Shown: piece by piece, positions 1 to 13,953 of the stretch
How the letters are laid out: the number at the start of each line of letters is the position of its first letter
How positions within the stretch are numbered: the stretch's first letter is position 1
NCBI GenBank assembly: GCA_040377565.1
Contig: JBEION010000001.1
Span: 1 to 26,926, forward strand
DNA length: 26,926 bases
Reading direction: 5' to 3'
Source of the DNA: Candidatus Nanopelagicales bacterium
Lineage (GTDB): Bacteria > Actinomycetota > Actinomycetes > S36-B12 > UBA5976
Translations under genes and position numbers: made by a program
The notes under the pieces: model-generated
The model's input: the letters and a program-made list of their open reading frames with translations, nothing else
Told to the model about the DNA's origin: nothing
Databases searched by the model: none

Positions 1-102
1 CCGCTGCTTTTCCCAGGCATTTTGTTCCTATTAATTTGGGGATTGGCCTATGTGATGAATAACAAAGTTGACGAGGCAAAGGCCGCCCGAGAAAACCTTT
101 AA
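1..102 (+). CDS. 3' end of a small membrane protein, probably DUF4233 family (partial at window edge)
   Basis: Frame +1 is open from base 1 to TAA 100-102 ([33 protein letters not shown]): a hydrophobic helix then a charged tail. A DUF4233 gene normally lies just upstream of ndk in actinobacteria. Confidence 0.5.
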
Positions 103-105
103 GAT
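100..105 (+). promoter_or_regulatory. Putative -10 element (TAAGAT) for a leaderless ndk transcript
   Basis: TANNNT hexamer exactly 7 nt before ATG 113, with no clear Shine-Dalgarno motif in between. Confidence 0.45.
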
Positions 106-112
106 TAAGAAC

Positions 113-520
113 ATGTCTGAACGTACCCTTGTCCTTGTAAAGCCAGATGGCGTCGAACGCGGTCTAATTGGCGAAGTAATTTCCCGTATCGAACGCAAAG
201 GTTTCAAAATCGTTGCCTTGGAAATGCGCACTCTAGAGCGCTCCATCGCCGAAACTCACTACGCCGAGCATGTCGATAAGCCTTTCTTCAAGGACTTAGT
301 TGATTTCATTAGCGGTGGACCATTGGTCGCAGCCGTAATTGAAGGTAACGAAGCAATTGCAGCTTGGCGCACCATGATGGGTGCAACCAATCCAGTTAAC
401 GCTGCAATGGGAACTATCCGTGGCGACCTTGCAACTGAAACACAACTAAACGTTTCGCACGGATCAGATTCACCAGAATCTGCTGCGCGCGAGATTGCAC
501 TATTTTTCCCAAAACTGTAA
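113..520 (+). CDS. ndk: Nucleoside diphosphate kinase
   Basis: [31 protein letters not shown]-terminus, GTIRGD, and the NVSHGSDS phospho-His motif. ATG 113 is preferred over the ORF-track TTG 68. Confidence 0.97.
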
Positions 521-530
521 AGGGTTAGAA

Positions 531-2483
531 ATGACGGTCCAGTCTGTATTTCCGGCACTGGAACAGTTATTGCCTCGGGTGCAAAAACCTGTTCAATACG
601 TTGGTGGCGAACTTAACGCTGTCGTAAAGCCATGGGATGACACCATCGTGCGTTGGTGTCTGATGTATCCCGATGCTTACGAAGTTGGTATTCCCAACCA
701 AGGTGTTCAAATTTTGTATGAAGTACTTAATGAGCGTGCTGACACATTATGTGAGCGCACCTACGCAGTATGGCCTGACTTAGAAAAGTTAATGCGGGAA
801 AACGGTGTACCTCAGTTCACAGTTGATGCCCATCGTCCGGTTGGCGCTTTCGATGCTCTAGGCGTTTCGTTTGCAACCGAACTCGGTTACACCAACATGC
901 TTACTGCAATCGATTTAGCTGGCGTTCCATTACATGCAGTAGATCGCGATGAGACGCATCCGCTGGTCATTGCCGGAGGACACGCAGCATTTAATCCAGA
1001 AGCTATCTCAATGTTTATCGACGGCGCTGTTCTTGGCGATGGCGAGCAAGCAGTACTTGCAATCACCGACATCATTGCGGCGTTTAAGTCCGAAGGAAGT
1101 CCTGGCGGTCGCGATGAACTCTTGATGCGCCTTGCCAAGTCTGGCGTGATGTATGTTCCAGCTTTTTATGATGTTGAGTATTTAGAAGACGGCCGGATTC
1201 GCCGAGTTTCACCTAACCGTCCAGGTGTGCCATGGCGGGTAGCAAAGCACACGGTTATGGATCTAGATGAATGGCCATATCCAAAAGCGCCGCTAGTTCC
1301 AATCGCAGAAAGCGTTCACGAACGCATGAGCGTAGAGATTTTCCGTGGCTGTACTCGTGGTTGTCGTTTCTGCCAAGCGGGCATGATTACTCGTCCAGTA
1401 CGCGAGCGTTCCATGACGACGATCGCTGACATGGTTGCAAACGGTCTAGAAAAGACTGGCTATGAAGAAATTGGCCTTCTTTCCTTGTCCAGCGCTGATC
1501 ACTCCGAAATTGCTGAGATCGCAAAGGGATTGGCTGATCGTTACGAAGATACCCAGACTTCGTTATCACTTCCAAGCACCCGAGTAGATGCTTTCAATAT
1601 CGACTTAGCTAATGAACTTTCTCGTAACGGTCGTCGCAGCGGATTAACGTTTGCACCTGAAGGTGGCAGCGAACGAATTCGTAAAGTCATCAACAAGATG
1701 GTCACCGAAGAAGATTTGATTCGTACCGTCACAGCTGCGTATGCATCCGGTTGGCGCCAAGTGAAGTTGTACTTCATGTGTGGCTTGCCAACTGAAGAAG
1801 ATGAAGATGTATTACAGATTGCTCGTCTTGCGCATGAAGTTATCAAAGCAGGACGTGAAGCATCTGGTCGTAAGGACATTCGCTGCACAGTTTCGATCGG
1901 TGGCTTTGTGCCAAAACCACACACACCATTCCAGTGGGCTGCACAACTAGATCACGAAACAACTGACTCACGTCTTTACAAACTTCGTGATGCAATTCGC
2001 CAAGACCGTGAATTTGGTAAATCAATTGGCGTGCGTTACCACGATGGAAAGCCAGGCGTAGTTGAAGGCTTGCTATCGCGTGGCGATCGTCGAGTCGGAA
2101 AAGTTATTGAGCAAGTTTGGCGTGATGGCCAACGTTTCGATGGCTGGAGCGAACACTTCTCATATGACAAGTGGATGGCAGCTGCGGAAATTGCATTTGC
2201 TGACGAAGCAGTAGACGTAAATTGGTACACCATCAGAGAGCGCGACTTATCTGAAGTACTTGCTTGGGATCATTTAGATTCAGGTTTGGACAAGGAATGG
2301 CTTTGGGACGATTGGCAAGATGCACTTTCCGAAGTTGAAGTTGATGACTGTCGCTGGGTGCCATGTTTTGATTGTGGCGTTTGCGATCACATGGGTACTG
2401 AGATTCAAGTCGGTCCAACTAATGCCGTAATGCTGCCAATGCCGGTTATCCCATCTCGGGTAGTTGCAAACAGTGGCACGTGA
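531..2483 (+). CDS. TIGR03960-type B12-binding-domain radical SAM protein, function unknown
   Basis: CTRGCRFC (CxxxCxxC) at 1350-1373; LLPRVQKPVQYVGGELN and YPDAYEVGIPNQG N-terminal motifs; SFATELGYTNML; FVPKPHTPFQW; C-terminal CRWVPCFDCGVC. ATG 531 follows AAGGG. Confidence 0.9.
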   Translation: MTVQSVFPALEQLLPRVQKPVQYVGGELNAVVKPWDDTIVRWCLMYPDAYEVGIPNQGVQILYEVLNERADTLCERTYAVWPDLEKLMRENGVPQFTVDAHRPVGAFDALGVSFATELGYTNMLTAIDLAGVPLHAVDRDETHPLVIAGGHAAFNPEAISMFIDGAVLGDGEQAVLAITDIIAAFKSEGSPGGRDELLMRLAKSGVMYVPAFYDVEYLEDGRIRRVSPNRPGVPWRVAKHTVMDLDEWPYPKAPLVPIAESVHERMSVEIFRGCTRGCRFCQAGMITRPVRERSMTTIADMVANGLEKTGYEEIGLLSLSSADHSEIAEIAKGLADRYEDTQTSLSLPSTRVDAFNIDLANELSRNGRRSGLTFAPEGGSERIRKVINKMVTEEDLIRTVTAAYASGWRQVKLYFMCGLPTEEDEDVLQIARLAHEVIKAGREASGRKDIRCTVSIGGFVPKPHTPFQWAAQLDHETTDSRLYKLRDAIRQDREFGKSIGVRYHDGKPGVVEGLLSRGDRRVGKVIEQVWRDGQRFDGWSEHFSYDKWMAAAEIAFADEAVDVNWYTIRERDLSEVLAWDHLDSGLDKEWLWDDWQDALSEVEVDDCRWVPCFDCGVCDHMGTEIQVGPTNAVMLPMPVIPSRVVANSGT

Positions 2484-3216
2484 TCGCGATCCAGGTCGCG
2501 AGATTATTCCCGCGGTTCAAAAGTTAAGAATTCAACACGCTAAGCGAGATCGCCTTCGCTTTACTTCACATCGAGATTTTCAGCGCGCATTTGAACGAGC
2601 ATTAAAGCGTGCTGGTGTACCGATGGCATACAGCGCTGGATTCTCACCGCATCCAAAGATTTCCTATGCCAACGCAGCGCCAACTGGAGTTGCTAGTGAA
2701 GCTGAGTATGTCGAAATTGGTGTAGTTCAGATAGTTGACCCAGAGAAATTACTTGCAGTCTTGGACGAAGTATTGCCACCAGGCCTGGACGTTTTGGCAG
2801 TGGTTGAGGCTCGGACTCCAGATTTCGTCGCCCGCCTTGAAGCTAGCCATTGGCGCATCGAACTTCCCGGCACCTCGCAAGAAACTTTGCAGGGGGCACT
2901 TGATGCCTTTATGTCGGAATCTGAAGTCCTGGTAGATCGCATGACCAAGTCCGGAATCAGAACCTTTGACGCCAGAACCGCTGTAATTCGGGCAAATGTG
3001 GAGATGGGCGCTGACTGTGCCATACTTCAAGTAGTCGTTCGGCATGGCGTGCCAGCTGTTCGACCAGACGATGTTCTGGCAGCTCTGAAAAAAGTTGCAG
3101 ACTTCGCCCAGGAGATTCCCCCTCGGGTTACTCGACTGGCGCAAGGTCCTTTGCTTGAAGACGGCTGGTCCGTGGGTGATCCTTTCACCTTGGATCGTGA
3201 AGCCACACAAGCTTGA
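2473..3216 (+). CDS. TIGR03936 / DUF2344 radical-SAM-linked protein
   Basis: RLRFTSHRDFQRAFERALKRAGVPMAYSAGFSPHPKISYANAAPTGVASEAEY is the family signature. It overlaps the radical SAM stop. GTG 2473 gives a typical MARD.. start. Confidence 0.88.
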   Translation: MARDRDPGREIIPAVQKLRIQHAKRDRLRFTSHRDFQRAFERALKRAGVPMAYSAGFSPHPKISYANAAPTGVASEAEYVEIGVVQIVDPEKLLAVLDEVLPPGLDVLAVVEARTPDFVARLEASHWRIELPGTSQETLQGALDAFMSESEVLVDRMTKSGIRTFDARTAVIRANVEMGADCAILQVVVRHGVPAVRPDDVLAALKKVADFAQEIPPRVTRLAQGPLLEDGWSVGDPFTLDREATQA

Positions 3217-3227
3217 GCCCTACATCG

Positions 3228-3300
3228 TCACTACATAGGCTTATGCGCCCTAGGGCGTGAGTGAACGCAAGACCGGTGCTTCGGCATAGGTGTTGTGCGA
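3228..3300 (+). promoter_or_regulatory. Structured 5' leader upstream of rne
   Basis: Hairpin ACC-G-GTGC-TTCG-GCAT-A-GGT (3272-3291) with a cUUCGg tetraloop, extendable by CGCAA/TTGTG; GC hairpin CGCCC-TA-GGGCG (3246-3257); TCACT/AGTGA closing arms. Confidence 0.35.
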
Positions 3301-3315
3301 TAGGAGACGACTTTC

Positions 3316-5355
3316 ATGTCGGATAACGAAGTAACACCAGAATCCAAACCACGTCGACGTGCCGCTGGCCGCCCGGCTGGACCACCAGTAGATGCACCGG
3401 CTGAAAAAGCCGATAAAGCGCCAGCTAAGGCTGCTGCCAAGAAGAAGGCGTCGGCTGCAAAGAAAGCACCAATTGCAGTTCCAGTTTTCCAATCTGCTCC
3501 AGTGACTGCTGCTCCTGCTAAGAAAAAAGCGGTAGCCAAGTCAGCAAGTAGCGAGGAAACCCTTTCGGTTGCCAAGAAGGGTCAAACCAAAAAGGCTCCA
3601 GCGAAGAAGGCGGCTGTCTCAGAATCCGCAGACAGTTCCGAGTCAACTTCAAATGAAGCTTCAGAATCTGGCGAAGAGCGCACCGGTGGCAATAACCGAA
3701 ACCGCAATCGCAACCGTCGTGGTGGCAAGAACAAGAACCGCGCGAAGTCAGCTAATGGCGCTGAAGGTTCCGAGTTAGAAGAGGGTTCAGCTGAAGCCTC
3801 GGACGAAGAATCAACTGAGTCAGCTGAAGCTGCTTCAGCTCGCAAACGTAGTCGTAAGCGCACTCGCGATGGTTCAGACAGCGAGTCTGGCTCAACCCGA
3901 CTAGATGCAAAGCGCAACCGTCGTCGAGATGGCCGCGATGCCGGACGTCGACGCGCACCAATCTTGACTGAATCTGAATTCCTTGCTCGTCGCGAAAACG
4001 TTGAGCGCGTAATGGTCGTTCGCCAACAAGGCGCTCGCACTCAAATTGCAGTTCTTGAAGATGGAATTGTTGTCGAGCATTACATCAATCAATCCAGCAG
4101 TGGCTCATTAGTTGGCAACGTTTACTTGGGACGCGTTCAAAACGTATTGCCAGGTATGGAAGCTGCCTTCGTTGACATCGGCAAGGGACGCAATGCGGTT
4201 CTTTACGCCGGCGAAGTTAACTGGGATGCAGCTGGCCTTGATGGTCAGCCAAAGAAAATTGAAACTGCACTTAAGTCAGGCGATCCCGTTCTGGTTCAGG
4301 TAACTAAGGATCCAGTCGGACAAAAGGGCGCTCGCTTAACTAGCCAGATTTCATTGCCGGGTCGTTTCTTGGTTTATGTTCCAAACAATCCAATGACTGG
4401 CATCTCGCGCAAACTTCCAGACCGGGAACGCTCTCGTCTGAAAACAATTTTGAAGGCAGTAGTTCCAGAAGATGCTGGCGTAATTGTTCGCACCGCATCA
4501 GAAGGAGCTAGTGAAGAGGAGTTAGGTCGCGACGTAGCAAGACTTGCTGCGCAGTGGACTGACATCGAAGCCAAGTCAAAAACTGCTTCACCTCCAACCA
4601 TGCTTTACGGCGAGCCAGACATTTCCATCAAGGTCGTTCGCGATATCTTCAACGAAGATGTTAAGAAGCTAATCGTTTCTGGTGCAGACGCTTGGGAGAC
4701 TGTTGAGCAATACGTAAGTTATGTTGCGCCTGATCTTGCAGATCGCTTAGAAAAGTATGTCGGCACAACCGATGTATTTACTGAGTACCGAATTGATGAA
4801 CAGATCGCTAAGGCACTTGATCGCAAGGTTTACTTGCCTTCTGGTGGTTCACTAGTAATCGATCGCACTGAAGCGATGACAGTTGTCGACGTTAACACTG
4901 GCAAGTTCATTGGTCAGGGTGGAAACCTCGAACAAACTGTTACCAAGAACAACATGGAAGCTGCAGAAGAAATTGTTCGACAGCTAAGACTTCGTGACAT
5001 CGGTGGCATCATCGTTATCGACTTCATCGATATGGTCCTAGAAAGCAACCGCGATCAAGTGATTCGTCGCCTGATCGAGTGCCTAGGTCGGGATCGCACC
5101 AAGCATCAGGTCGCTGAAGTTACCTCCCTTGGCCTGGTTCAAATGACCCGCAAGCGCATCGGCGCTGGATTGCTGGAAGTTTTCAGTGAGCCATGTGATC
5201 ATTGCCAAGGTCGCGGCGCAGTTGTGAACATGGATGGCCATGACGCCTCGAAAACCCCTAAAAACAAGGGTAAAAAGGGAAATCACGACCATTCCCATGA
5301 CAATTCCGCAGATTCCACCCCAGATTCAACCCCCGAAGAGTCTGTCTCGGTTTGA
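3316..5355 (+). CDS. rne: Ribonuclease E/G family (Rne/Rng) with long N-terminal disordered region
   Basis: S1 domain GNVYLGRVQNVLPGMEAAFVDIG, TEAMTVVDVNTG, RLRDIGGIIVIDFIDM, Zn-link CDHCQGRG. SD GGAG precedes the ATG. Confidence 0.95.
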   Translation: MSDNEVTPESKPRRRAAGRPAGPPVDAPAEKADKAPAKAAAKKKASAAKKAPIAVPVFQSAPVTAAPAKKKAVAKSASSEETLSVAKKGQTKKAPAKKAAVSESADSSESTSNEASESGEERTGGNNRNRNRNRRGGKNKNRAKSANGAEGSELEEGSAEASDEESTESAEAASARKRSRKRTRDGSDSESGSTRLDAKRNRRRDGRDAGRRRAPILTESEFLARRENVERVMVVRQQGARTQIAVLEDGIVVEHYINQSSSGSLVGNVYLGRVQNVLPGMEAAFVDIGKGRNAVLYAGEVNWDAAGLDGQPKKIETALKSGDPVLVQVTKDPVGQKGARLTSQISLPGRFLVYVPNNPMTGISRKLPDRERSRLKTILKAVVPEDAGVIVRTASEGASEEELGRDVARLAAQWTDIEAKSKTASPPTMLYGEPDISIKVVRDIFNEDVKKLIVSGADAWETVEQYVSYVAPDLADRLEKYVGTTDVFTEYRIDEQIAKALDRKVYLPSGGSLVIDRTEAMTVVDVNTGKFIGQGGNLEQTVTKNNMEAAEEIVRQLRLRDIGGIIVIDFIDMVLESNRDQVIRRLIECLGRDRTKHQVAEVTSLGLVQMTRKRIGAGLLEVFSEPCDHCQGRGAVVNMDGHDASKTPKNKGKKGNHDHSHDNSADSTPDSTPEESVSV

Positions 5356-5381
5356 CCCTAAGGCCCTTGAGTCCGTAACCT
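5352..5381 (+). promoter_or_regulatory. Housekeeping sigma70-type promoter for rplU-rpmA
   Basis: TTGACC (5352-5357), 18-nt spacer, TAACCT (5376-5381). Confidence 0.6.
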
Positions 5382-5441
5382 TATGAGGCTTAAGACTTAG
5401 GGTTTTCACCCGAAACAAGCATTAGTTCAAGGAGATACCTC

Positions 5442-6017
5442 GTGTACGCGATCGTTCGTGCTGGTGGCCGCCAGGAGAAAGTTGCCGTTGGCGACCTAAT
5501 TAGCCTTGACCGCGTTCAAGCCAAGCCAGGCGAGACAGTGGTTCTTCCAACTGTTTTGATCGTGGATGGCGACAAGGTCAACACCGACGCTAAAGGCGTC
5601 ACCGTAACCGCTGAAGTTATTGACCACAACCGTGGACCGAAAATCGAAATTCTTCGTTACAAGAACAAGACCGGTTACCGTCGTCGTCAAGGACACCGTT
5701 CAGATCTAACTGATGTGCAAATTATTTCAATCGGTAGCGAGAAGATCGCTGCTGGTGACAAGGCAACTGCAAAGGCAAAGCCAGTAGTTGCAAAGAAGGC
5801 TGCTCCTGTTGCTAAGGCCGCACCTGTTGCAAAGGCCGCTCCAGCAGCTAAAGCCGCAGAAAAGCCAGCTGCAAAGAAAGCTGCTGCTCCAGCAAAGAAG
5901 GCTGCACCTGCAAAGGCTGCCGCTCCAGCGAAGAAGGCAGCTCCTGCTAAAAAAGCTCCAGCCGCTAAGAAAGCTGCACCAGCGAAAAAAGCTGCTCCCA
6001 AAAAGACAGAGAAGTAG
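5442..6017 (+). CDS. rplU: 50S ribosomal protein L21 with long Ala/Lys/Pro-rich C-terminal extension
   Basis: [18 protein letters not shown] ... [23 protein letters not shown] core of ~98 aa, then ~93 aa of PAKKA-type repeats. SD AAGGAG, GTG start. Confidence 0.96.
5736..6014 (+). repeat. Degenerate coding repeats (PAKKA / PAKAA / PVAKAA) in the L21 tail
   Basis: [71 protein letters not shown]. Synonymous codons differ between units. Confidence 0.9.
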
Positions 6018-6026
6018 GTATAACTC

Positions 6027-6281
6027 ATGGCTCATAAAAAGGGTGCCTCCAGTACCAGAAACGGTCGCGACTCAAATGCACAGCGTTTGGGCGTAAAGCG
6101 TTTCGGTGGTCAGGTTGTTAACGCCGGAGAAATCATTGTTCGTCAGCGTGGCACACACTTTCACCCAGGTGAGAATGTTGGCCGTGGTGGAGATGACACA
6201 CTTTTCGCACTAGCTGCTGGCGCTGTCCAGTTCGGTAGCCGTCGCGGTCGTCGTGTTATCAACATTGTCCCTGCGGAATAA
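6027..6281 (+). CDS. rpmA: 50S ribosomal protein L27
   Basis: [29 protein letters not shown] and [10 protein letters not shown] signatures. Confidence 0.98.
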
Positions 6282-6304
6282 TTCCGCGGAATTTTTGTAG
6301 ATTG

Positions 6305-6334
6305 GCGGGTCCGGTTCGGGCCCGCTTTTCTTTT
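6305..6334 (+). terminator. Intrinsic terminator after rpmA
   Basis: GCGGGTCCG-GTT-CGGGCCCGC stem (one G-U pair) followed by TTTTCTTTT. Confidence 0.75.
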
Positions 6335-6348
6335 GGAAAGGAGATTCA

Positions 6349-7848
6349 ATGACTTCGTTTATAGATCAAGTGACTCTCCATGTGCAAGGCGGTAATGGCG
6401 GACACGGTTGTGCTTCGGTTCACCGCGAGAAGTTCAAACCATTAGGTGGACCTGATGGCGGCAATGGCGGCAATGGTGGCGACGTAGTCCTAGTTGTTGA
6501 TCCATCCGTTACAACTCTTCTAGATTTCCATCGCAGTCCTCATCGCAGCGCCGGTAATGGCAAGCCTGGACAAGGCGATCACCGCAATGGTGCGTATGGC
6601 GAACATCTTGAATTAGCAGTTCCAGAAGGAACTGTAGTTTCACTTGCTGACGGCACAGTCTTGACTGACATGTTGGGCATTGGCACACGTTATGTAATTG
6701 CTGCTGGCGGTCGCGGTGGCCTTGGTAACGCAGCACTGGCCTCAACTAAGCGCAAAGCTCCAGGCTTCGCACTTCTTGGTGAGAAGGGCGTCACTCGCGA
6801 TGTCATCCTGGAACTTAAGACCGTTGCTGATGTGGGCCTAGTTGGCTACCCAAGCGCTGGAAAGTCTTCCTTGATCGCAGCTATGTCTGCAGCTCGACCA
6901 AAAATTGCTGACTACCCATTCACCACCTTGGAACCAAACCTTGGTGTGGTTCGCTCTGGCGAAATGATTTTCACTATGGCGGACGTTCCTGGTCTGATTC
7001 CTGGTGCAAGTGAAGGTAAAGGTCTTGGCCTGGAATTCCTTCGTCACATTGAGCGCTGTGCCGCGCTTGTGCACGTACTGGACTGCGCAACTCTGGAACC
7101 TAATCGCGATCCATTAACCGACTTAGATGTAATCGAAAATGAACTAAAGCAATACGGCGGTTTGGAAGATCGACCACGTGTTGTAGTTCTTAACAAGATT
7201 GACATCCCAGAAGGCCGCGAACTAGCTGAGTTTGTGCTTCCTGATTTACATGAACGCGGTTATCAAGTTTTCTTAGTATCAGCGGTTAGCCATGAGGGGC
7301 TAAGAGAACTTGGATTTGCACTAGCTGACATTGTTAAAGCCTCACGCGCTGAAGCAATCTTTGCCGCTGAGAATCGACCACGCGTTATCGTTACACCTAA
7401 ATCAGTGGATGACTCTGGATTCACAGTCACAGCCGAAAAGTCCGGAGCCGAAACTGTTCGTTACCGCGTTGTTGGCGAACGACCAGAGCGTTGGATTCAC
7501 CAAACCGATTTTGCCAACGATGAAGCCGTTGGGTACTTGGCAGACCGTTTGGCTAGAGCAGGCATCGAACTTGAATTGGCTAAAGCCGGCGCAGTCGCTG
7601 GCGACGAAGTTGTAATCGGTGAAGGCCCGAGTGCTGTTGTGTTTGATTGGGCGCCAACTGCAGGAGACTTACATCAAGGTCCACGCGGTACCGATCAGCG
7701 TTTGTATGACAAGCGCCGACTTAGTGCAGACGAGCGCCTTGCGATTCACAGAATTCGACAGTACGGAACAGGTGAGCCTGAAGAAGTTGTTGATCCACTT
7801 ATCATCGAAGATTTTGATGGAGACCTAGATGACGGTCAAACGAACTGA
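6349..7848 (+). CDS. obgE: GTPase ObgE/CgtA with actinobacterial C-terminal domain
   Basis: Gly-rich Obg fold ([28 protein letters not shown]), G1 [23 protein letters not shown], and C-terminal [16 protein letters not shown]. Confidence 0.97.

Positions 7849-13837: not shown

Positions 13838-13953
<116 letters not shown>

What the first reader, a model, noticed from the sequence alone, without database searches (positions are those of the whole stretch)
531..3216. Uncharacterised radical SAM + pseudouridine-synthase-like pair wired to rne and ribosome genes: candidate RNA-modification system
Seen: a CxxxCxxC radical SAM gene overlaps a DUF2344/TIGR03936 gene by 11 nt, directly upstream of rne-rplU-rpmA-obgE. 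Known: both families lack an assigned reaction, and DUF2344 is described as distantly related to TruA but lacking the catalytic Asp. Inferred: a two-component enzyme in which the TruA-like subunit binds an rRNA/tRNA and the radical SAM subunit installs an unknown modification. Its retention in a compact locus suggests it matters.
Basis: partly seen in the sequence, partly recalled or inferred. Interest (0 to 1): 0.62.

Follow-up and report, generated by a model that had tools for sequence, protein, structure and literature searches.

The report
Orphan radical SAM pair beside RNase E
Two overlapping genes encode a radical SAM enzyme and a partner shaped like a pseudouridine synthase without its catalytic residue; this is an ordinary copy of a very widespread, still uncharacterised pair that usually sits just upstream of RNase E/G and probably modifies an RNA.

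Summary
Gene 531-2483 is a TIGR03960 radical SAM protein with an intact CX3CX2C motif. Gene 2473-3216 is a TIGR03936/DUF2344 protein. They overlap by 11 nt and lie between ndk and rne-rplU-rpmA-obgE.

- **Partner fold:** DUF2344 folds as a complete TruA-type pseudouridine synthase (Z 12-14). The catalytic Asp is Pro here and is never acidic in 37 diverse relatives.
- **One unit:** The two genes occur in exactly the same 93 of 201 Actinomycetota genomes. They are fused in 14 of 51 informative metagenome loci. Both are missing from three genomes of two sister genera.
- **RNase E link:** RNase E/G is the next gene in 17 of 31 diverse loci. Where the radical SAM gene has moved away, DUF2344 stayed beside rne in the four such loci examined.
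- **Second cluster:** A further Cys motif (C607/C612/C615) is invariant, which suggests an auxiliary Fe-S cluster.

An RNA substrate is inferred, not shown. A protein substrate, or a link to rne that only reflects inherited gene order, remains possible. The family is catalogued but has no known function, and this scan has noted it 193 times on other DNA. I rate it a new member of a known kind, of moderate interest.

The parts
531..2483 (+). TIGR03960 radical SAM gene (650 aa). It has an N-terminal Rossmann-type domain (PF19864), a radical SAM core (PF04055) and a conserved C-terminal domain.
   Evidence: 129 positions are at least 90% conserved across 49 diverse relatives plus this protein.
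1350..1373 (+). CX3CX2C motif (C274, C278, C281) for the radical SAM [4Fe-4S] cluster.
   Evidence: Invariant in alignment A1 and in the 49 metagenome relatives, which were selected by this motif. Codons checked.
2349..2384 (+). Second cysteine motif, D-C-R-x3-C-x2-C-G-x-C (C607, C612, C615, C618). It is a candidate ligand set for an auxiliary Fe-S cluster and sits at the point where DUF2344 is attached in fused forms.
   Evidence: C607, C612 and C615 are 100% conserved in 49 diverse relatives; C618 is present in at least 52%. Codons checked. That a cluster binds here is inferred.
2473..2483 (+). 11-nt overlap between the radical SAM stop (TGA 2481-2483) and the DUF2344 start (GTG 2473).
2473..3216 (+). 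TIGR03936/DUF2344 gene (247 aa), a complete pseudouridine-synthase fold.
   Evidence: AF2 model with pLDDT 96 and pTM 0.90. Foldseek and VIA-align hits to TruA, Pus1, Pus3 and Pus10.
2674..2688 (+). The former catalytic loop, A68-A69-P70-T71-G72. P70 aligns with E. coli TruA Asp60 and A68 with Arg58.
   Evidence: HMM alignment and hhalign. Column composition in 37 diverse relatives is P/S/G/A/T, never D or E.
3316..5355 (+). rne (RNase E, actinobacterial type), the conserved downstream neighbour, 99 nt after DUF2344.
   Evidence: Neighbourhood statistics.
5442..6281 (+). rplU and rpmA (ribosomal proteins L21 and L27), same strand. They are context, not shown to be part of the system.
6304..6326 (+). 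Terminator-like hairpin after rpmA (10 pairs, 8 of them G-C, followed by a T run). It is the best of ten terminator-like sites found in 1..6400 (shuffled sequence averages 7.2), and the only + strand site at a gene boundary besides a weaker one that overlaps the rpmA stop (6271-6289).
   Evidence: This is a consensus scan only.

Best explanation
The two genes encode the two halves of one enzyme. The radical SAM subunit has a cobalamin-type Rossmann domain, an AdoMet radical barrel with its CX3CX2C cluster, and a second invariant Cys motif at its C-terminus. The DUF2344 subunit is a pseudouridine synthase that has lost its catalytic Asp and Arg but keeps the fold. I propose that DUF2344 serves as the substrate-recognition module. 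It would bind a structured RNA and present one nucleotide to the radical SAM active site. There a 5'-deoxyadenosyl radical would abstract a hydrogen, and a methyl group (if cobalamin is bound) or another group is installed. The target is most likely an RNA that is also handled by RNase E/G, such as an rRNA or tRNA precursor, with the modification made during maturation. Shown here: the domain content, the fold, the loss of the catalytic residues, the behaviour of the two genes as one unit, and the neighbourhood. Inferred: complex formation in this split form, the second cluster, cobalamin use, the RNA substrate and the chemistry.
For: Unit behaviour:
- TIGR03960 and TIGR03936 are found in exactly the same 93 of 201 Actinomycetota genomes, with no genome holding only one.
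- Both are missing from three 92-94% complete genomes of two sister genera and from one further genome of the order.
- In 51 informative metagenome loci the pair is adjacent but split in 29, fused in 14, split and 1.4-3.1 kb apart in 3, and DUF2344 is absent in 5.
- Three of 20 loci across the phylum are fused.
- A natural 927-aa fusion is predicted with pLDDT 87 and whole-chain pTM 0.88, despite a disordered 45-residue linker.

Fold:
- The P0002 model has pLDDT 96.
- All top-50 VIA-align hits are pseudouridine synthases or pseudouridine-synthase-fold proteins, with Z 12.4-13.9 and 192-212 residues aligned for the TruA, Pus3 and Pus10 hits. They include two chains of trypanosomal mitoribosome assembly complexes (6sga_FB, 9hny_FC).
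- Sequence-level homology to TruA: the DUF2344 profile cross-hits real TruA proteins, and hhalign gives probability 87% and E 4e-7 over 226 columns.
- The Asp60 column is never acidic.
- The organism keeps a genuine TruA elsewhere.

Neighbourhood:
- rne/rng is the next gene in 17 of 31 informative metagenome loci and rplU in 2.
- This spans 9 of 19 sequence clusters and radical SAM pairs only 40% identical.
- It includes loci with no rplU in the 6-10 kb that follow (L152, L156, L183).
- 17 of the 20 Actinomycetota loci examined carry rne within about 0.8 kb downstream of DUF2344.
- In 8 phylum-sample genomes the radical SAM gene lies 1.4-20 kb from DUF2344. In the four of these I examined, DUF2344 stayed next to rne.

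Precedent:
- The radical SAM part resembles cobalamin-dependent methylases (MgmA, TsrM, CysS, TokK) and the tRNA enzyme MiaB.
- A cobalamin-dependent radical SAM methylase acting on 23S rRNA (RlmX) is described in PMC13602947.
Against: - No experiment bears on this family, and no paper on it was found.
- The best structural match of the radical SAM part, MgmA, methylates a protein.
- 12 of 31 informative loci have unrelated downstream genes (Usp, hexapeptide transferase, solute-binding protein, peptidase S58, HIT).
- The ndk/mre...rne-rplU-rpmA-obg order is old, so part of the linkage could be inherited rather than selected.
- P0002 is mildly acidic (pI 5.8), and the family median pI is only about 8-9.
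- The Pfam B12-binding model does not match the N-terminal domain.
- The tools give no model coordinates, so I could not inspect the interface or check whether the old pseudouridine-synthase cleft faces the radical SAM active site.
Confidence: 0.5

Rival explanations
1. The pair modifies a protein rather than an RNA, for example a ribosomal protein such as L21 or L27, or RNase E itself. DUF2344 would act as a docking module for a ribonucleoprotein or protein substrate.
For: The closest solved structure to the radical SAM part is MgmA, a protein glutamine C-methylase. RimO, also among the matches, modifies ribosomal protein S12; from general knowledge it does so although it carries an RNA-type TRAM domain. 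The rplU and rpmA genes lie directly downstream here and in many relatives.
Against: All top-50 structural matches of DUF2344 are pseudouridine synthases or pseudouridine-synthase-fold proteins from RNA-protein complexes. The pair occurs next to rne without rplU or rpmA nearby in several loci. No modified residue is known that would need such an enzyme; that last point rests on my own knowledge and was not tested.
Confidence: 0.15
2. The pair is mainly an accessory of RNase E/G: an RNA-binding adaptor or chaperone, possibly redox- or iron-sensing through its Fe-S clusters. It would steer RNA processing without leaving a covalent mark.
For: DUF2344 stayed next to rne in the four examined genomes where the radical SAM gene has moved away. 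Two chains with the same fold sit in trypanosomal mitoribosome assembly complexes. Earlier notes of this scan report lineages in which the radical SAM part has lost its cysteine motifs yet is retained (e1-756551, e1-975599; not checked here).
Against: In this protein and in all 49 diverse relatives both cysteine motifs are invariant, and about 129 positions are at least 90% conserved, including the SAM-binding core. That fits a working enzyme. The relatives were, however, selected by the first motif. The strict co-occurrence of the two genes argues that DUF2344 needs the radical SAM partner.
Confidence: 0.1
3. The substrate is a small molecule, cofactor or lipid. The position next to rne is inherited gene order without functional meaning.
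For: Many cobalamin-type radical SAM enzymes among the structural matches act on small molecules (TsrM, CysS, TokK, OxsB, AprD4). 12 of 31 loci have unrelated downstream genes. The surrounding gene order is ancient.
Against: A full pseudouridine-synthase fold has no known small-molecule role. The rne adjacency recurs in 9 of 19 divergent clusters and survives where the rest of the gene order is gone. When the pair is split, DUF2344 remains beside rne.
Confidence: 0.15
4. DUF2344 is still an active pseudouridine synthase that uses another catalytic residue.
For: The fold is complete, and Glu78 is invariant close to the old catalytic loop.
Against: The Asp60 and Arg58 equivalents are absent throughout the family. 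P0002 matches no pseudouridine-synthase Pfam model. The organism has its own TruA. The protein never occurs without the radical SAM partner in the sample.
Confidence: 0.02

Closest known systems
NCBIfam TIGR03960 (B12-binding radical SAM protein, 'rSAM_fuse_unch') with TIGR03936 / Pfam PF10105 DUF2344 (radical SAM-associated protein)
   Same: Both proteins score far above the curated cut-offs. They are adjacent, as the family definitions expect, and fused forms exist in relatives.
   Different: Nothing: this is an ordinary split member. The family has no assigned reaction.
TruA / Pus1 / Pus3 pseudouridine synthases (Pfam clan PseudoU_synth, to which PMC7955657 assigns DUF2344)
   Same: The whole catalytic-domain fold (Z 12-13, about 195-200 residues aligned), with detectable profile-profile similarity.
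   Different: The catalytic Asp and the neighbouring Arg are replaced (Pro70 and Ala68 here). There is a family-specific insert with conserved R46, G56, F57 and P59 before the old catalytic loop. The protein always accompanies a radical SAM partner.
Cobalamin-dependent (class B) radical SAM methylases: MgmA, TsrM, CysS, TokK. The rRNA enzyme RlmX is known to me only from the review PMC13602947 and was not compared by sequence or structure.
   Same: An N-terminal Rossmann-type domain followed by the radical SAM barrel. These are the best structural matches of the radical SAM part.
   Different: No match to the Pfam B12-binding model. There is an extra invariant C-terminal Cys motif and a pseudouridine-synthase-fold partner. 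Cobalamin binding is untested. The TIGR03960 model found no relative in the E. coli control genome, so RlmX is at most a functional analogue.
MiaB / MtaB / RimO methylthiotransferases
   Same: Three-part logic: a flavodoxin-like N-domain, the radical SAM core, then a substrate-binding domain. There is a second cluster with three Cys ligands, and these enzymes are structural matches.
   Different: Here the second Cys motif is C-terminal, not in the N-domain. There is no TRAM domain, and the scores lie far below the family cut-offs (19 bits against 251).
Pseudouridine-synthase-fold chains in trypanosomal mitoribosome small-subunit assembly complexes (PDB 6sga, 9hny)
   Same: They share the pseudouridine-synthase fold and sit in an RNA-protein assembly complex. 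That they are catalytically inactive RNA-binding modules is my recollection, not a tool result.
   Different: They are eukaryotic, unrelated in sequence, and have no radical SAM partner.

Membership tests
TIGR03960 radical SAM family | Whole-protein score above the curated cut-off (462.3 bits) | tested here: met
   694.7 bits, E 1e-208, profile positions 2-602 of 605
TIGR03960 radical SAM family | CX3CX2C radical SAM cluster motif | tested here: met
   C274, C278 and C281 present
TIGR03960 radical SAM family | Partnered with (adjacent or fused to) a TIGR03936 protein | tested here: met
   11-nt overlap in the window. The same 93 of 201 genomes hold both.
TIGR03936 / DUF2344 (PF10105) | Score above the curated cut-offs (71.9 bits NCBIfam, 23.8 bits Pfam) | tested here: met
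   192.8 and 169.9 bits
Pseudouridine synthase, TruA family | Pseudouridine-synthase catalytic-domain fold | tested here: met
   Z 12.4-12.9, rmsd 3.2-3.3 A, 192-198 residues aligned to TruA structures; Foldseek E 3e-9
Pseudouridine synthase, TruA family | Catalytic Asp (E. coli TruA Asp60) in the RTDxGVH loop | tested here: not met
   It aligns with Pro70. The column is P/S/G/A/T in 37 diverse relatives.
Pseudouridine synthase, TruA family | Match to Pfam PF01416 above cut-off | tested here: not met
   Only PF10105 is reported for P0002 at E up to 0.001
Cobalamin-dependent (class B) radical SAM methyltransferases | N-terminal cobalamin-binding Rossmann domain recognisable by sequence (PF02310) | tested here: not met
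   No PF02310 match in P0001. A genome-wide PF02310 search finds other loci but none on the window's contig.
Cobalamin-dependent (class B) radical SAM methyltransferases | Overall fold like solved class B enzymes | tested here: inconclusive
   MgmA, TsrM, CysS and TokK are the top Foldseek matches of the fused homologue's model. MiaB and AprD4 also match.
Cobalamin-dependent (class B) radical SAM methyltransferases | Binds cobalamin and transfers a methyl group | not testable with these tools
   This needs spectroscopy and an activity assay. The genus does carry other B12-binding-domain proteins.
MiaB/RimO methylthiotransferases | Family score above cut-off, N-terminal three-Cys UPF0004 domain and C-terminal TRAM domain | tested here: not met
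   TIGR00089 scores 19.3 bits against a cut-off of 251. No Cys column in the N-domain is universally conserved; the best is 66% and is Ala here. No TRAM match.

The most novel reading that the evidence does not exclude
The pair is a new kind of RNA-modifying machine. A catalytically dead pseudouridine synthase would act as the guide or clamp that presents a nucleotide to a two-cluster radical SAM enzyme. The resulting mark would be functionally coupled to RNase E/G, either tagging rRNA or tRNA precursors during maturation or tuning where RNase E cuts. Identifying it would add a new modification enzyme, and possibly a new nucleoside, found across several thousand protein clusters but not in the E. 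coli or B. subtilis control genomes.
Probability: 0.3. Interest if true: 0.8.

Novelty: new member of a known kind. Interest (0 to 1): 0.4.

Why it matters
The DUF2344 partner alone has about 9,300 protein clusters at 50% identity, and 4,295 of them match at E up to 1e-10. Of the 14 control genomes only Synechococcus elongatus and Thermotoga maritima hold both genes; no match was found in the E. coli, B. subtilis or Corynebacterium controls. That may be why no function has been assigned. If the pair installs an RNA modification tied to RNase E/G or to ribosome assembly, it would fill a gap in the catalogue of bacterial RNA-modifying enzymes. It would also give a new example of a dead enzyme fold reused as a substrate adaptor. 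This particular copy adds little beyond what other copies show. What it does offer is a clean, minimal, overlapping arrangement in a streamlined genome. The comparisons made here add three facts: strict co-occurrence, joint loss in sister genera, and DUF2344 staying with rne.

Tried and rejected
- **Genome-collection scan:** the alignment of radical SAM proteins returned only Actinomycetes, because the best 80 matches are kept.
- **Homologue searches:** the search with P0001 listed only relatives at 82-100% identity. The 'longer' search with P0002 gave mostly gene-calling artefacts.
- **Apparent DUF2344-RNase E fusion (P0288, 1087 aa):** it is frameshifted high-GC junk, not a real fusion.
- **The look-up of encoding contigs:** I used a degenerate DNA pattern on metagenome contigs instead.
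- **Orphan 16S rRNA nucleoside N-330 at C1404:** it is reported in Thermotoga maritima and Haloferax volcanii (PMC2584109). I considered it as a product and set it aside, because the H. volcanii control genome has no match to either family.
- **RNA elements:** the Rfam scan found only a tRNA. The 99-nt rne leader folds no better than shuffled sequence (z -0.9).
- **Isoelectric points:** they neither support nor exclude RNA binding.
- **ESM Atlas:** it returned only the protein's own family.
- **Literature:** no functional study of the family turned up.
- **Model coordinates:** they are not exposed, so interface, surface-charge and cleft analyses were not possible.
- **L017:** what looked like an internal stop was only the terminal stop inside a tblastn hit.
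Full report
**What is in the window.**
- On the + strand the order is ndk (113-520), a 650-aa radical SAM gene (531-2483), a 247-aa gene (2473-3216), rne (3316-5355), rplU (5442-6017), rpmA (6027-6281), obgE (6349-7848), proB and proA.
- The radical SAM protein scores 694.7 bits against TIGR03960 (cut-off 462.3). It carries PF19864 and PF04055, with the CX3CX2C cysteines at C274, C278 and C281.
- The second protein scores 192.8 bits against TIGR03936 (cut-off 71.9) and 169.9 bits against DUF2344.
- The radical SAM stop is at 2481-2483. The only canonical in-frame starts upstream of the DUF2344 domain are GTG 2473 and TTG 2464, so the genes overlap by 11 or 20 nt.
- The gaps are 10 nt (ndk to radical SAM gene), 99 nt (DUF2344 to rne), 86 nt and 9 nt. 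Ten terminator-like sites were found in the first 6.4 kb, against 7.2 expected in shuffled sequence. The best follows rpmA at 6304-6326.
- The host genome is a 1.29-Mb, 75%-complete assembly.

**The small protein is a pseudouridine synthase without its active site.**
- With a 57-sequence alignment, AlphaFold2 gives a model with pLDDT 96 and pTM 0.90.
- Foldseek against the PDB returns TruA, Pus1 and Pus3 first (E 3e-9 to 1e-6).
- In VIA-align all 50 best entries are pseudouridine synthases or proteins with that fold. The TruA, Pus3 and Pus10 hits reach Z 12.4-13.9 with 192-212 residues aligned. Two are chains of trypanosomal mitoribosome assembly complexes.
- The relationship is also visible in sequence. 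The TIGR03936 and DUF2344 profiles give weak second hits in actinobacterial genomes, and those hits are genuine TruA genes. My own DUF2344 profile aligns with the TruA catalytic loop. A global profile-profile comparison with a TruA alignment headed by E. coli TruA gives 87% probability and E 4e-7 over 226 columns.
- In that alignment E. coli Asp60 falls on Pro70 and Arg58 on Ala68. In 37 DUF2344 domains from unrelated metagenome contigs (20-52% identical to this one) the Asp column is P, S, G, A or T and never acidic. Meanwhile G56, G72 and E78 are invariant, and R46, P59, K24 and H33 are at least 89% conserved. The strongest conservation therefore surrounds the former catalytic loop.
- The organism has a separate, ordinary TruA. 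Pfam's placement of DUF2344 in the pseudouridine synthase clan is mentioned in PMC7955657.

**The two genes behave as one unit.**
- In an even sample of 201 Actinomycetota genomes, TIGR03936 is above cut-off in 93. TIGR03960 is found in the same 93, with no genome holding only one of the two. These tallies include the two genomes flagged as unpublished, G001 and G018; both are among the 108 without the pair.
- Within the window's order 56 of 61 genomes have the pair, including all 7 sampled genomes of its genus. Three genomes of two sister genera (92-94% complete, 1.3-1.4 Mb) and one further genome of the order lack both genes.
- Three of the 20 Actinomycetota loci examined have the two fused in one frame.
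- To sample beyond the phylum I scanned metagenome contigs with a degenerate pattern for the radical SAM motif. All 80 loci returned carry a TIGR03960-type gene, 36-78% identical to this one, on contigs with G+C from 0.29 to 0.74.
- Of 51 loci with enough downstream sequence, DUF2344 is adjacent but split in 29 and fused in 14. In 3 it is split and 1.4-3.1 kb away, and in 5 it is absent.
- A natural 927-aa fusion from an actinobacterium is predicted with pLDDT 87 and whole-chain pTM 0.88, although its 45-residue linker is disordered. That suggests a defined docking of the two parts. The tools give no coordinates, so I could not inspect the interface.

**The radical SAM subunit.**
- Foldseek on the fusion model finds cobalamin-dependent methylases first (MgmA, TsrM, CysS, TokK), then MiaB, MtaB, RimO, AprD4 and OxsB.
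- By sequence the only solved relatives are MgmA (E 2.5e-5) and a RimO-like protein.
- The Pfam B12-binding model does not match the N-terminal domain, although the same genome has three other loci that do match it. Cobalamin use is possible but unproven.
- Across 49 diverse near-complete relatives plus this protein, 129 positions are at least 90% conserved. Besides the radical SAM cysteines, C607, C612 and C615 are invariant and C618 is common. This second motif lies exactly where DUF2344 is joined in fusions. It is a good candidate for an auxiliary Fe-S cluster, which is an inference.

**The link to RNase E/G.**
- In 17 of the 20 Actinomycetota loci examined, rne lies within about 0.8 kb downstream of DUF2344, often abutting or overlapping it, and rplU-rpmA-obg-proB-proA follow.
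- Of 31 metagenome loci with enough sequence after DUF2344, the next gene is rne/rng in 17, rplU in 2 and something else in 12. The others include Usp, hexapeptide transferase, solute-binding protein, peptidase S58 and HIT twice.
- The rne-adjacent cases fall in 9 of 19 clusters at 55% identity and include pairs only 40% identical. Several have no rplU in the following 6-10 kb. So the association is broad and does not depend on the ribosomal genes, but it is not universal.
- In 8 genomes of the phylum sample the radical SAM gene lies 1.4-20 kb from DUF2344. In the four of these I examined, DUF2344 stayed directly upstream of rne. In one of them the insert holds unrelated opposite-strand genes and a NYN-domain ORF.

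**Most likely mechanism.**
- I read the pair as a two-subunit radical SAM enzyme. The dead pseudouridine synthase would recognise a structured RNA and present a nucleotide, and the radical SAM subunit would modify it. The substrate is probably an RNA that RNase E/G also processes.
- A precedent for a cobalamin-type radical SAM methylase acting on 23S rRNA (RlmX in E. coli) is described in a 2026 review (PMC13602947). The TIGR03960 model finds no relative in the E. coli control genome, so this is an analogy, not membership.
- I put about 0.5 on this reading. The two-part enzyme itself I hold near 0.9 and the RNA substrate near 0.5-0.55.
- Three rivals remain: a protein substrate, a non-catalytic RNase E accessory, and an unrelated substrate with inherited gene order. 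An active pseudouridine synthase is effectively excluded.

**Novelty.**
- The family is catalogued (NCBIfam, Pfam) and named as uncharacterised. I found no functional paper.
- This scan had already noted the same pair 193 times in other genomes, and the eight notes shown all carried follow-ups reaching the same general reading. I treated those notes as leads and re-derived the fold, the missing Asp and the neighbourhood statistics independently.
- This copy is an ordinary split member.
- Not stated in the eight notes shown, and measured here: the exact co-occurrence, the joint loss in sister genera, the invariance of the second Cys motif, and DUF2344 staying with rne when the pair is pulled apart.

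Noticed in passing
window 5736-6017: Ribosomal protein L21 carries a C-terminal extension of about 90 residues beyond the roughly 100-aa L21 domain (191 aa in all).
   Followed up: no
window 6304-6326: A strong terminator-like hairpin (10 pairs, 8 of them G-C, then a T run) follows rpmA and is the best of the ten terminator-like sites found in 1..6400. It suggests that ndk through rpmA could be one transcript, with obgE-proB-proA separate.
   Followed up: partly
window 3316-4040: RNase E has an N-terminal extension of about 240 residues before the catalytic RNase E/G domain (the Pfam domain starts at residue 346 and the NCBIfam domain at 242). It scores well below the cut-off of the mycobacterial RNase E equivalog model (814 bits against 1400).
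   Followed up: no
window 13838-13910: A tRNA gene, the only Rfam match in the window.
   Followed up: no
L020:10349-10927 (- strand): In a larger actinomycete genome the radical SAM and DUF2344 genes are 4 kb apart. A NYN-domain ORF (30.6 bits) lies directly upstream of DUF2344 on the same strand; I recall NYN as a ribonuclease-type domain. Opposite-strand IclR and E1 dehydrogenase genes fill the rest of the insert.
   Followed up: partly
L189:12549-13085 and L195:2803-3438: In two unrelated metagenome loci the gene after the pair is a HIT-domain protein instead of RNase E/G. From my own knowledge HIT proteins are nucleotide hydrolases or transferases.
   Followed up: partly
window 984-986 (radical SAM residue A152): In the GGxx motif of the N-terminal domain, 66% of the 50 aligned family members have Cys at this position. 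This protein has Ala.
   Followed up: no
G245, G255, G260 (same family, other genera): These streamlined sister genomes lack both genes. Their ndk is not followed by rne within about 5 kb, so the locus is rearranged rather than simply deleted.
   Followed up: partly
G034:C18:18207-19961: One actinobacterial TIGR03960 match contains a TAA stop inside the match. This could be a broken gene or an assembly error.
   Followed up: no
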